A stretch of 64,000 nt of DNA from Eledone cirrhosa. Taxonomy: Eukaryota. Each line of letters begins with the position of its first letter. The stretch's first letter is position 1. Position numbers and translations under genes: made by a program. The DNA is taken from assembly GCA_964016885.1 (NCBI GenBank), contig OZ024743.1, forward strand, positions 52,762,001-52,826,000, written 5' to 3'. The notes beneath the pieces are model-generated. The model searched no databases. It was not told the DNA's origin and saw only the letters and a program-made list of their open reading frames with translations. Shown here one piece after another: positions 625 through 64,000 of this stretch.

Positions 625-1290
625 TATATAAGAAAGTAAGTGCATAGAATCATTAGATAAAATATATACAGTATTTCTTCTCCCAATCAGCATAATCAAC
701 CATACAAAAAATCATTTAAACGAGGCTATAAGTTTAAAATATACCTATGAAGAAATAATAGATAAATAAATGATAGCTTTTTATCCTCGATTTACAGCCA
801 CAGAAAATTTACCTAATATTTCTGATAGCCTGTAGAAATTGACTAGACATATAGTTAACCACACATAATTAGGTACAAAATCAAAGTTAGGAGAACAAAT
901 GTACATAAACATACCAAAATAATCAAAATACATATCTATCCCCGGGGGTTTCATTCGCTTTTTGGATATATCCGATCTTGGATACATCAACGAGTTTCGA
1001 AATCATCAGGAGACAAACTCAATTGGACAAAGATTTTTCTTAAATGATCGCCGCCAGAAACGAATTCAAAATGGCTAAGAAATGTCACGTGGCCAGTGGT
1101 CAGAAGTGAGGAGAAGAAATACTGTATATATTTTATCTATTGATTCTATGGACTTACTTTCTTATATATTGCTCTGATTGTTGATTATTTAATTAATTCA
1201 TTCGTCATTGAGCCAGACCGTGAATGGTTGCCAAAAACATATATATATATCTATGGCTCTGTCTAGTTTATGTATATATAAACTTCTAAA
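625..1290 (-). mobile_element. Diverged relative of the 664-bp HHR element (family C) with a 5' inverted segment
   Basis: 625-1108 is reverse-strand similar to parts of 14815-15720. 1110-1290 is a forward segment (GGAGAAGAAATACTGTATATATTTTATCTA...) whose start is inverted relative to 625-685. (TA)n on both sides. Confidence 0.7.
932..1015 (-). ncRNA. Type I hammerhead ribozyme, partly degenerate (family C-like)
   Basis: Minus strand: TGTCTC-CTGATGA-TTTCG...CGAAT-GAAA-CCCCCGGGGA-TA-GATAT. Core intact, with mismatches in stems I and III. Confidence 0.6.
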
Positions 1291-1471
1291 TTATATATAT
1301 ATATATATATATATATATATATATATATATATATATATATATATATATATATATATATATATATATATATATATATTCATTAGTTAAGCAAAACAAGACC
1401 ACAAATTTCACAAGGAAGACATTATTTAAAGATTGTCAACATAGTTGTAGTTTAATGTAAGGAATGTAAGG

Positions 1472-1586
1472 AATAATAATTGTTTATACTTTAGGCACAA
1501 TGCCAGCAAGTACTCAGTGCATTACTGGTACTTTATTTTATCGACCCCGTAATGATGAAAAGCAAAGTCAACCTCGGCGGGATTTG
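1472..1586 (-). mobile_element. tRNA-type SINE, 5'-truncated copy
   Basis: Reverse complement of CAAATCCCGCCGAGGTTGACTTTGC..TTCATC..TACGGGGTCGATAAAATAAAGTACCAGT and the TGTGCCTAAAGTA..AACAATTATT tail. GTAAGGAATAATAAT occurs on both flanks. Confidence 0.85.
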
Positions 1587-1616
1587 TAAGGAATAATAAT
1601 AATACTAATAATGTCC

Positions 1617-1735
1617 GTTTACAATTGTTTCGCTACTCCATATAATGTTTCTGGATCAAATGATTATAGATCATTATTGATCTGGGCCAGATGAAGATAA
1701 TTAACTTAGGTAAAAATGGAGCAGCTCATCGGAAC
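1617..1735 (-). ncRNA. Type I HHR with long stem II and U4C core variant
   Basis: Minus: GTT-CCGATGA-GCTGCTCCA...TGGAGTAGC-GAAA-CAATTG-TA-AAC. 9-bp stem II and palindromic stem III. Confidence 0.65.
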
Positions 1736-2837
1736 TTCAAAAGAGATAATGAAAATATTGATAAGGAATATAAATTGGCTTCTAACTAATTCACCAATCT
1801 CTTCTCCTCTCCTATCTCCATCTCTCTCTTTAAGATTGGTTTACTCTTGAACTGTGTGTATATATATATATATATATATATATATATATATATATATATA
1901 TATATATATATATATATATATATATATATATATATATATATATATACACAACCTTCACCAGGATTTGTTTTGTCAGATGTCTTTAACCAATTGATACCAG
2001 ACATTATTTGGTCAGTAGTTCATGCGTGTGTGTAAGTATATATATATATATATATATATATATATATATATATATATATATATATATATATATATATATA
2101 TATATATATATATATATATATATATATATATATATATATGCTGGGGAATTGGTTGACCAAATGCTTTGTTTAATTGTTATATTTATTTTTAAGAAAAATG
2201 TATTTTTTCTGTTAGACTTCAGGCATTTTTTGAAAGCACAGCATTGGCCCCTAAAATACTAAAGTGGGCCCTGCAATGCTACCGTGGGCCCCCTGGGTAC
2301 CACTTGCCATTGGGCAACCTGGTAACCTGGCCAATCCACCACTGTATATATGTATATATATATATATATATATTTATTCTTCTTGTTATATCTGTATTTT
2401 TGACCGTTGGTCAGTCAATAAATTAACTATGGAGATATAAAAGATACTGAAGCGAAAACCAACCAAACAGTGAGTGTATTATTACAACAATATGACCCTC
2501 CCCAAGTATAACAATATATATATATATATATATATATATATATATATATATATATATATATATATATATATATATATATATATATATATATATATGATTC
2601 CAACCAGAATGGTTGCATTTTTTCTGGGTATCTCAATATTTATTTATAAAACTAACCTATATATATATATATATATATATATATATATATATATATATAT
2701 ATATATATATATATATATATATATATGTATATGTATATATATATATATGTATATATATATATATGTATATATATATATATATATATATATATATATATAT
2801 ATATATATATATATATATATATATATTTTATTAATTA

Positions 2838-3035
2838 TTTATTAAAATAACAGATTAAAGTTTAAGCAAAGAATCGCTGCTTTCACGCTTAACGGGATCT
2901 TCTGAAACTAAAAAAGTCAATCTGTGAACGCAGAAGTAAATGTTTCAAAAAACGTTGCAACCGAAGGAAGACAGGAAGACGATACTTTGGTTCGTGGAAA
3001 CGTTCCCTGGCAAAGAACGAAAAAAAACGAAGATA
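2838..3035 (-). mobile_element. Dispersed repeat family F (also 51100-51232, 63289-63485) with variant HHR at 2859-2909
   Basis: Three similar copies. Minus: AGTTT-CAGAAGA-TCCC..G(G/C)GT-GAAA-GCA...TGC-TT-AAACT. Confidence 0.7.
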
Positions 3036-3335
3036 ATACGTCATTATTTGGTGCAGTGAAAACAATTACACGCGAAGACAAAACCACGTTTATGGTATAA
3101 ATGAAGTTGTAGATTAAAATTCTATTTAGGAAACCGAATGAATCTCGGCTTCAGAGTTAAGTATAAAGTAAATAAAATACAGAGGTAATTGAAATTAAAT
3201 ATATACATACACACATCCATATACGTACATACACAAGCATATATGTGTGTATATATATATATATATATATATATATATATATATATATATATATATATAT
3301 ATATATATGTATATGTGTAGTGTTCAGTGTTCGCA

Positions 3336-61944: not shown

Positions 61945-62105
61945 CGGTGGATGGAAGTGACGGATGGACGAAAGGGTGGATGGAAGTGACGGATGGATGA
62001 AAGGGTGGATGGAAGTGATGGAAGAGTGAAAGGGTGGATGGAAGTGATGGAAGGGTGAAAGGGTGGATGGAAGTGCTGGAAGGGTGAAAGGGTGGATGGA
62101 AGTGA
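61945..62105. repeat. 21-25-bp minisatellite AAAGGGTGGATGGAAGTGATGG
   Basis: About 6 copies. Confidence 0.85.
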
Positions 62106-62569
62106 AAGATGGAAACAAAAATATAACATGGCGGGAGACGAAAAAAAAACGAAAAGAAAAAAGAAATAATAATTTTTAAAAAGTCAAAAGCATCAATAAA
62201 AAGCAACATTATTAACTTTTATAACTTTGAGTGCGTGTTTATATTATCATATAATAGACATCACACCACCCGGTCTGTTTTTACCTTTTCTACACCTCAG
62301 TGTCCTTCTTTATCTACATGTTGAACCACAATCCTTATTCTCTTCTATTTTACTATTTCTCTCCTTTAGTTAAGCCCTTGTACTCTCTATATTTGTGTAA
62401 TTTGTCTAAAGGTATAACTTGTCTCTGTTTTGTTATGTGCCTGGACATGGAATGAATGGTATCGACCTTAACCCACCAAAACCGTAGAGATCTGTCTGTC
62501 TTTCTGTTGTTTTTTCCATTGTCTTTATCCGGTGCGCTCCCTATTTTGAATTTATATATAATTAGTTGA

Positions 62570-63000
62570 TTCAGTCTGTATGTGTGTACATAGGTCTAAA
62601 TTAACGTCTAGGGGGTTAATATTGTTGAGGTTGGTGGATATAGTAATTGTTAAGCCTAGGCTGTTGAAGGTAGTAATCAGTTTTTTTCTAAATGTGTTGA
62701 GGTCATGGCCACTTTTATGACTGGATAGTGCCAGACTGTCATCACGATATAGGTCTTATGGAAGTCAGGGAATTTCTTATGTAGTGTATCTAAGATAAAA
62801 AAGTCCACCAAATCACATATATCATCACTGTCAAATGATCCCATCGGGACATCAAATAGGTCGTTGTTAGTGGATTTCTTTCTCCAGGGGTCGTCTTTAT
62901 TAAAGAGGAGGGTTTTTCTGCTGTGGGATATTACTAATTGATCTAACTCATCTATATTGGTCAAATTGCTAGCGAATTCAAGGCTTTTCAAGTAAAATCC
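62570..63000 (-). pseudogene. PLE RT fragment (MGSFD / YRDD type)
   Basis: RKTLLFNKDDPWRKK...FDVPMGSFD..ICDLV. Shifted frame: LYRDDSLAL...FNSLGLTITISTNLNNINPLDVNLDL. Confidence 0.8.
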
Positions 63001-63288
63001 TGGATATCGAAGGGTAAAAGTCAACTATATCAAAGTGTTATTCAGTGAATATCTGGTGGTACCTATATGAGCACTCGATGTACAGACAGAATGTATATGA
63101 TAAAAAACAAAACATGTTCTTATTGTGTATCGTCCTGCTACGCGAGTATTGCGTATACACAATAAAACATAAATACAAATAAACGAAACTTCACCATTTT
63201 GCTAATTATATATATATATATATATATATATATATATATATATATATATATATATATATATATATATATATATATATATATATATATA

Positions 63289-63485
63289 TTTATTAAAATA
63301 ACAGATTAAAGTTTAAGCAAAGAATCGATGCTTTCACCCTTAACGGGATCTTCTGAAACTAAAAAAGTCAATCTGCGAATGCAGAATTAAATATTTCAAA
63401 AAACGTTGCAACCGGAGGAAGACAGGGAGACGATACTTTGGTTCGTGGAAACGTTCCCCGGCAAAGAACGGGAAAAAACGAAAAA
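63289..63485 (-). mobile_element. Family F copy with variant HHR (63310-63360)
   Basis: Minus: AGTTT-CAGAAGA-TCCC gttaa GGGT-GAAA-GCA tcgattctt TGC-TT-AAACT. Confidence 0.7.
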
Positions 63486-63488
63486 AAG

Positions 63489-64000
63489 CCGTACGGCTTA
63501 ATTCGATGTTTGTTTACAAACACACCGAGCATTATAATAAATGTTCGGTGAATCCATACGTACATATATATATGTGTGCATGTATGTATATATATATATA
63601 TATACATACTACTATACGTCTGTATACATATATGTATGTACGTATATATACTTATATTTAAGTAACAGCCGTACTAAGAGTGAGAAATGAAATTTCGTTT
63701 CATTTTTTCCGTTTATCGTTTTCGGGGCGCCCGGCCGATTAACTCACTCGATATGCAAATTAGGCTGCTCAGCCGTTAATATGCATAAGGAAAGTATATA
63801 CTTTCAGACGTTCAATCATCTGGCAGGAAGGTATACGTTGCTGACGATAGCTAATAAGCTTGAAATTAGTACAGCGTTCCTTTGTCAGTGTTGAACAAAT
63901 GAGCAACGATGGTTGCTAGACACTGTACGGCTTAATTCGGGATGTTTGTTTACAAACACACCGAGCATTATAATAAATGTTCGGTGAATCCATACGTACA
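63489..64000 (+). mobile_element. Family B array (436-bp period), continues beyond the window; HHR 63835-63877, octamer 63753-63760
   Basis: CCGAGCATTA at 63525 and 63961. ACGTTG-CTGACGA-TAGC taataa GCTT-GAAA-TTAG-TA-CAGCGT. Confidence 0.9.

What the first reader, a model, noticed from the sequence alone, without database searches (positions are those of the whole stretch)
900..64000. Very high ribozyme density: 15 intact and ~12 variant hammerheads from roughly ten families in 64 kb
Intact cores with paired stems start at 3336, 6552, 7189(-), 7719, 8184, 8648, 15354, 29151, 29591(-), 44715(-), 44858, 45270(-), 56216(-), 57221(-) and 63835. Variant or degenerate ones are at 932, 1617, 2859, 6006, 11812, 15853, 19882, 51107, 55170, 57805, 58047 and 63310. 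At least six PLE coding relics lie nearby. HHRs in PLE pseudo-LTRs are established. The diversity here suggests several helper PLEs with many non-coding satellites, and any transcript crossing this region could self-cleave on either strand (inference).
Basis: partly seen in the sequence, partly recalled or inferred. Interest (0 to 1): 0.8.

Follow-up and report, generated by a model that had tools for sequence, protein, structure and literature searches.

The report
Penelope hammerheads, some with crippled cores
The hammerhead ribozyme motifs are real and come from Penelope-type jumping genes and their small non-coding passengers, which litter this whole (likely octopus) genome at over 140,000 copies, so this window is only two to three times the average; the notable part is two abundant families whose ribozyme core carries a fixed change predicted to cripple cutting.

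Summary
The motifs are real. All 12 'variants' belong to hammerhead families, about 15 in all, and six Penelope-like (PLE) relics are present. The density is a genome-wide trait: 99 grid stretches give 67 per Mb, and two exact patterns match 140,111 times in the 3-Gb genome. The window is 2-3 times the mean. Several families are truncated ends of coding PLEs (Hydra clade and Neptune/Nematis-like); five are non-coding tandem units like retrozymes. Most have palindromic stem III, so they likely cut only as dimers, and 'any transcript self-cleaves' is overstated. The new element: an intact 713-aa Hydra PLE has U4A fixed in its core (17,933 versus 71 canonical), and another family has A13C (10,264 matches). 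Both are predicted to impair cutting, yet both amplified. No activity or RNA data. The scan noted a similar case on other DNA (e1-9846728).

The parts
930..1017 (-). Degenerate hammerhead, diverged relative of family D (U16.1 missing)
1617..1735 (-). Family K: U4C core, long stem II, palindromic stem III, 3-bp stem I; the one other copy seen also has U4C
2833..3241 (-). 3' end of Hydra family H with U4A hammerhead (C3 2904; stem II damaged), ending in (TA)n
3336..3410 (+). Family F hammerhead, canonical core, true 5-bp stem III; stem II is weaker in the 19 other copies shown
3724..4418 (-).
4415..5853 (+). Young PLE relic (RT end plus GIY-YIG, 5' inversion 4415-4700); 131 scored copies 98-100% identical in protein, open frames up to about 1200 aa
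6006..6057 (-). Family J copy with an internal deletion of the CUGAAGA box (dead)
6552..6625 (+). Family G hammerhead; pLTR of a Hydra-type PLE (L102); A.G at 10.1-11.1, 3-bp stem III
6951..8986 (+). Family A: 465-bp non-coding unit, 3.5 tandem copies plus a 5' inverted copy; hammerheads at 7226(-), 7726 (broken palindrome), 8191, 8655
11810..11849 (+). Family I1, U3-A8 core; this copy has lost the 10.1-11.1 pair
14814..15715 (+). Family D: 664-nt non-coding unit between (TA)n runs; intact hammerhead C3 15360
15853..15882 (-). Minimal hammerhead (4-nt palindrome), damaged, downstream of the Neptune-like relic
17092..19232 (-). Frameshifted Neptune-like PLE relic (DKG, RT, CX4CXXC linker, GIY-YIG)
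19425..19928 (+). PLE endonuclease end (19425-19630) followed by family M minimal hammerhead (19889, C3U)
28791..29402 (+). Family B non-coding unit with 5' inversion; hammerhead C3 29157 (U.U at 10.1-11.1)
29591..29655 (-). Family C hammerhead; 3' end of a Hydra-type PLE (link seen in L061)
44672..44971 (.). Family C2 head-to-head inverted pair, hammerheads 44777(-) and 44866(+); Hydra-type link in L167/L168
45270..45330 (-). Family C hammerhead
51100..51233 (-). Family H end, U4A hammerhead C3 51151, three stems paired
54060..54290 (-). Hydra-type RT relic
55170..55965 (-). PLE endonuclease end (55852-55965) with downstream U3-A8 hammerhead (55204)
56021..57621 (-). Family E: 1005-nt non-coding unit, 1.6 copies; hammerheads 56336 and 57341 with a 96-nt stem II domain, GUU site
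57617..58247 (.). Family I2 inverted pair; U3-A8 plus A13C cores at 57838(-) and 58050(+)
59916..59960 (-).
62555..63037 (-). Old Hydra-type RT relic
63286..63485 (-). Family H end, U4A hammerhead C3 63355
63491..64000 (+). Family B unit (period 434), hammerhead C3 63841

Best explanation
The window is a pile of short 3' end pieces of several Penelope-like retrotransposons plus non-coding tandem units, carrying type I hammerheads and ending in (TA)n runs at 2-3 times this genome's high average, and they were likely copied there by the PLE enzymes. Shown: the motifs, their families, the links of families C, C2, G, H, I2 and M to PLE reading frames, fixed 3' ends, 5' truncations and inversions, and the genome-wide counts. 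Inferred: the PLE protein likely nicks AT-rich DNA and starts reverse transcription just downstream of the hammerhead, so even the shortest copies keep it; the non-coding units likely borrow the same enzymes; most hammerheads would cut only as dimers through the palindromic stem III in tandem transcripts. Two families amplified with core changes (U4A, A13C) predicted to impair cutting, which suggests that cleavage is likely not needed for copying.
For: Descriptor versus shuffles. With no stem III requirement, 72 of 79 hits still have a palindromic or near-palindromic stem III, in more than ten sequences; 1 hit in 3 shuffles. Family C stems show 17 double-sided changes, 0 of 500 shuffles as high (rows were chosen by the descriptor, so this is partly circular). 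Family H is the repeat on both sides of an intact 713-aa frame, period 3243 nt in L141. C, C2, G, I2 and M join PLE frames in L061, L167/168, L102, L079/L129/L143 and L147. Two discrete 3' ends run into (TA)n, matching the published tail signature (PMC11167929, PMC8557442). In run X1 the repeat end is about 30-60 times deeper than the frame. 74 of 131 hits have (TA)6+ within 200 nt downstream, against 16% of random points. Units D, E and 575 share the tail-start motif of the Hydra families. U4A 17,933 versus U4 71; A13C in 98 of the first 100 of 10,264 matches.
Against: No activity or expression data. No coding partner was found for units A, B, D, E, 575, F, J or K, and A and B lack the shared tail motif. 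The window has fewer (TA)6+ runs than the background (11.4 versus 21.4 per 10 kb), so target density does not explain its excess; by insertion events it is in the top 1-3%. The U4A effect comes from another hammerhead (PMC9901934) and could be offset here. Clades were assigned by motif; no tree was built.
Confidence: 0.85

Rival explanations
1. The locus is a selected cluster of ribozymes that cut or regulate a host transcript running through it.
For: Motifs on both strands; 13 insertion events versus 5-6 expected; 14 strict hits in the 100 kb to the left.
Against: Every motif belongs to a dispersed multi-copy family; many are damaged; at least 81% of the window is repeat and no obvious exon was seen (by eye, no annotation); one 10-kb grid stretch holds 13 hits; only 6 hits in the 100 kb to the right.
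Confidence: 0.04
2. The U4A and A13C motifs are active natural variants, rescued by tertiary contacts or by the PLE protein, rather than crippled.
For: All three stems of the U4A motif stay paired and stem III is a true 4-bp helix. A U4C viroid variant works in vivo (PMC3088659). A PLE hammerhead cleaves only with its protein (PMC11167929).
Against: Single mutants in the CUGA turn showed low activity in a saturation screen (PMC9901934). The U4A motif also has a U.U pair and a CUU site. None of 36 aligned H copies starts at the cut site, while 21 start inside the motif (weak, since very short copies escape detection).
Confidence: 0.3
3. Most motifs are chance matches in AT-rich, microsatellite-rich DNA.
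For: Low-complexity sequence; broad-descriptor false positives exist (7 in one shuffle of the grid, and some satellite hits).
Against: 0 strict hits in 100 window shuffles and in 3 grid shuffles; reversed-pattern controls gave 0 and 13 against 55,121 and 84,990.
Confidence: 0.01

Closest known systems
Minimal hammerheads in pseudo-LTRs of metazoan PLEs (PMC4209133)
   Same: Type I, palindromic stem III, extra base after A9 (family M), U3-A8 variants, inverted pairs 100-700 bp apart, mostly truncated single copies.
   Different: Far more copies than the 2,000-9,000 reported there; longer stem III palindromes (6-10 nt); stem II domains up to 96 nt; family-wide U4A and A13C.
Hydra-clade PLEs, including Hydra-1_Obim of Octopus bimaculoides (PMC8557442, section 11 and supplement rows)
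   Same: DKT, CxCX5C linker, C-terminal GIY-YIG, (TA)n targets, hammerhead near the 3' end.
   Different: One octopus family was listed there; at least three or four are here, one with tens of thousands of ends. Hydra-1_Obim has a canonical core; family H has U4A.
Non-LTR retrozymes (PMC7229834; bioRxiv 10.64898/2026.07.22.740005)
   Same: Non-coding head-to-tail units with one type I hammerhead each, co-existing with PLEs.
   Different: Units reach 664-1005 nt and show PLE-type 5' inversions and tails; circular RNA not shown here.
Schistosoma mansoni Sm-alpha and axolotl retrozyme expansions
   Same: Very high copy number (over 38,000 candidates, PMC2770079; about 120,000, PMC7229834).
   Different: Absolute count here is higher and spread over many more families. 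Density is similar to S. mansoni if its genome is about 0.4 Gb (size recalled).

Membership tests
Type I hammerhead ribozyme | CUGANGA and GAAA core with three helices and an NUH site | tested here: met
   12 strict, 17 broad; shuffles 0 and 0.13
Type I hammerhead ribozyme | Canonical core in families H and I2 | tested here: not met
   U4A 17,933 versus 71; A13C 98 of first 100
Type I hammerhead ribozyme | Reaches an Rfam family threshold | tested here: not met
   4 HH9 matches at 29-34 bits against 52
Type I hammerhead ribozyme | Self-cleavage | not testable with these tools
   No assay; no RNA holder listed
PLE dimer-type hammerhead | Short palindromic stem III | tested here: met
   72 of 79 without requiring it
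Hydra-clade PLE (family H) | RWK-type motif, DKT, CxCX5C linker, C-terminal GIY-YIG, single frame | tested here: met
   RWR in L141/L144 (L140 has RCW), SDKTG, CNCRNRADC, 713 aa
Hydra-clade PLE (family H) | Insertion into (TA)n; pLTR and tail | tested here: met
   19 of 39 ends run into TA, 16 into the tail
Hydra-clade PLE (family H) | Canonical hammerhead | tested here: not met
   U4A fixed; families C and C2 have canonical cores
Hydra-clade PLE (family H) | Phylogenetic placement with reference Hydra RTs | not tested
Naiad PLE | N-terminal GIY-YIG | tested here: not met
   Endonuclease is C-terminal in the 713-aa and 1171-aa frames
Neptune/Nematis-type PLE (relics 4415, 17092, L079) | CX2-5CXXC linker before C-terminal GIY-YIG | tested here: met
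   the two clades were not told apart
Non-LTR retrozyme (units A, B, D, E, 575) | Non-coding head-to-tail unit with a hammerhead | tested here: met
   Periods 465, 434, 664, 1005, 575; no blastx hit to 9 PLE proteins
Non-LTR retrozyme (units A, B, D, E, 575) | Expressed as circular RNA | not testable with these tools
   No RNA holder listed
Non-LTR retrozyme (units A, B, D, E, 575) | Target-site duplications | not tested
   Flanks are (TA)n, which hides them

The most novel reading that the evidence does not exclude
This genome holds some 200,000-300,000 hammerhead motifs, more than any count I found in print, and contains a natural experiment: an intact, recently expanded Hydra-clade PLE (over 18,000 ends) and a second family (over 10,000) spread after fixing core changes that disable the ribozyme, beside sister families that keep canonical cores and co-varying palindromes. 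Cleavage would then be dispensable for PLE spread in vivo, with the hammerhead kept as a fold or as a requirement only of the tandem non-coding units.
Probability: 0.5. Interest if true: 0.62.

Novelty: new variant of a known kind. Interest (0 to 1): 0.42.

Why it matters
Why PLEs carry hammerheads is open: one in vitro study found that catalytic mutants still insert (PMC11167929), and Craig et al. asked whether hammerheads simply parasitise PLEs (PMC8557442). Sister families in one genome with canonical, U3-A8, U4A and A13C cores, each in thousands of copies and some with intact helper frames, make this directly testable. The counts also suggest that cephalopod annotations undercount these RNAs (235 Rfam hits in giant squid, PMC6962438; no mention in a 2026 Octopus vulgaris repeat annotation, PMC13282606). 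The window itself is an upper-tail example, not a special locus.

Tried and rejected
Rfam: no hammerhead reached a gathering score; the miRNA matches are (TA)n artefacts. Pfam on 12 window frames gave one weak GIY-YIG match. I first read the Hydra frames as Naiad because of a DKA motif in one copy; rejected when whole copies showed a C-terminal endonuclease. Minimum-energy folds of single motifs often do not show the hammerhead fold, for example H and E; not used either way. Run search with the 465-bp unit: no RNA holder listed. The four runs laid are contigs of unknown kind and cannot show ends or expression. No pile-up of 5' ends at the cut site in family H, but the test is weak. Searches for coding partners of D, E and F (14 loci each) found none joined to the unit; A and B were checked only in loci already held. 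(TA)n density as the cause of this window's excess: rejected. Lunse et al. 2017 on small PLE hammerhead variants was not held, so U4A or A13C may be described there. The paper searches for octopus or cephalopod plus hammerhead and for U4A found no genome-wide count and no natural U4A report; subscription papers and bioRxiv supplements were not searchable.
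Full report
Setting. The window is G000:C4:52,762,001-52,826,000 in a 2,996-Mb assembly. At least 81% of it is interspersed or tandem repeat, and I saw no obvious host exon among the remaining frames. The closest named relative of its youngest PLE protein is from Octopus vulgaris (63% identity), so an octopod host is likely but inferred.

Observation. A broader descriptor, allowing a bulge, a mismatch, U3-A8 and U4A, finds 17 against 0.13 in 30 shuffles. It adds 6561, 44777, 51151, 63355 and the unlisted 4063. 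Site 7719 has a broken palindrome. The 12 'variants' are members of real families: damaged copies (932, 2859, 6006, 11812, 15853, 19882), apparent or proven family-wide core variants (1617, 51107, 57805, 58047, 63310) and a single U3-A8 copy (55170). Six PLE relics are present. When stem III is left out of the descriptor, 72 of 79 hits in grid plus window still show a palindromic or near-palindromic stem III, the signature of dimer-type hammerheads.

Density. I took 99 10-kb stretches on a fixed grid: 71 on C1-C7, 28 on C8-C22; contigs beyond C22 were not sampled. They hold 66 strict motifs, 67 per Mb (bootstrap 36-103), or about 110,000-310,000 genome-wide; three shuffles gave 0. 71 stretches had none and one had 13. 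C1-C7 gave 62 and C8-C22 gave 4. Whole-genome patterns confirm the scale: 55,121 matches for the A/B/310-bp group (control 0) and 84,990 for C/C2 (control 13). In the grid, 25 of 27 and 21 of 29 such matches pass the strict descriptor. The window has 8 of these 140,111, against 3.0 expected. By motif count the window has P about 0.07; by insertion events 13 versus 5.0, P 0.007, or 0.024 against the large chromosomes. The flanking 100 kb hold 14 and 6 strict motifs. Long simple-repeat arrays in the window carry no motifs, so the rest is somewhat denser than these figures say. The window is an upper-tail stretch of a ribozyme-rich genome.

Origin. Family H flanks an intact 713-aa frame with Hydra-clade motifs; L141 shows hammerhead, frame, hammerhead with period 3243 nt. 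Families C, C2 and G join other Hydra-type frames. I2 and the 55204 motif sit with a Neptune-like frame, and M with a frame related to the 1171-aa family. The young 1171-aa family (window 4415-5853) carries a core with only a 2-bp stem I. Copies have two fixed 3' ends running into (TA)n, variable 5' truncation and frequent 5' inversion. In run X1 the repeat end has depth 1.1-3.0 million against 21-92 thousand in the frame. Five units of 465, 434, 664, 1005 and 575 nt are non-coding and head-to-tail. D, E and 575 share the tail-start motif of the Hydra families; A and B do not. No coding partner was found for any of them.

Mechanism. The published PLE model (PMC11167929, passages read) has the enzyme cut AT-rich DNA and start reverse transcription at two internal sites, which gives the tail. 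As those sites lie 70-350 nt past the hammerhead here, even short copies keep it (inferred). 74 of 131 motifs have (TA)6+ within 200 nt downstream against 16% of random points, and motif count tracks TA runs across the grid (rho 0.52). Each insertion leaves TA on its flanks, so families nest in one another, as at 5850-9000. The window itself has fewer TA runs than average, so this does not explain its excess. Palindromic stem III means cleavage likely needs a second same-strand copy; 8191/8655 and 56336/57341 are such pairs. Head-to-head pairs would form long duplexes instead (inferred).

Variant cores. The U4A 30-mer of family H matches 17,933 times and the canonical form 71 times; the six canonical loci fetched all begin at a 5' junction just before the core. 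U4A stands in both repeats of intact elements, and a contig of a second organism's run covers the site without a difference (X4). The I2 pattern matches 10,264 times, with A13C in 98 of the first 100; its sister I1 keeps GAAA in 10 of 14. Single changes in the CUGA turn gave low activity in a saturation screen (PMC9901934, passages); that A13 is essential is recalled knowledge. U3-A8 and a U.U first pair in stem II are known tolerated variants (PMC3088659, section 8 and passages). A full-length intact frame for I2 was not shown.

Known work. Hammerheads in PLE repeats: PMC4209133 (parts 1-2 of 4 read). Hydra clade and an octopus family with a canonical hammerhead: PMC8557442 (passages, section 11, supplement rows). 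Retrozymes: PMC7229834 (passages) and bioRxiv 10.64898/2026.07.22.740005 (part 1 and passages). Counts: PMC2770079, PMC6962438, PMC13282606 (passages). Review: PMC6765202 (passages). PMC11014351 (passages) added nothing.

Verdict. The genome-wide load and the two fixed core variants are the parts worth following. Interest 0.42; new variant of a known kind.

Noticed in passing
window 23832-28305: Two frameshifted copies (76% alike) of a non-PLE, non-LTR retrotransposon; looks L1/Tx1-like (label recalled, not tested). Longer frames of the same kind lie in L063 and L064.
   Followed up: no
window 34484-42659 and 46178-51092: Very long (TGG)n-type and 10-bp arrays with G+T strand skew up to 0.97, including a 262-nt G run at 38213; no hammerheads inside.
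   Followed up: no
window 1472-1586, 10563-10777, 12235-12608, 13595-13928, 21127-21649, 44345-44560, 52093-52307: Many copies of a 180-200 bp SINE-like repeat, some in tandem; very common in the grid stretches.
   Followed up: no
L075:281-3381, L078:8630-9683; G000:C1:5738326-5752444: A 310-bp hammerhead tandem family absent from the window, and an array of about 30 units of the 465-bp family; many 465-bp copies cut after GUU rather than GUC.
   Followed up: partly
L141:5900-6020; window 44680-44715, 29500-29560: A tail hairpin motif shared by most families also appears at the end of the published coral element Hydra-2_Amil; a candidate recognition site for the PLE protein.
   Followed up: partly
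family H copies: 5' truncation and inversion points crowd inside the hammerhead itself (21 of 36 copies), as if reverse transcription stalls or switches there.
   Followed up: partly
C1-C7 versus C8-C22: Hammerheads are about six times denser on the large chromosomes (62 in 71 stretches versus 4 in 28).
   Followed up: partly
window 9561-9632, 12839-13042, 31619-31996: Fragments of another repeat with open frames of 130-170 aa and no Pfam match.
   Followed up: no
L043:8250-9998: A host-like zinc-finger frame of 583 aa in a grid stretch, unrelated to the finding.
   Followed up: no
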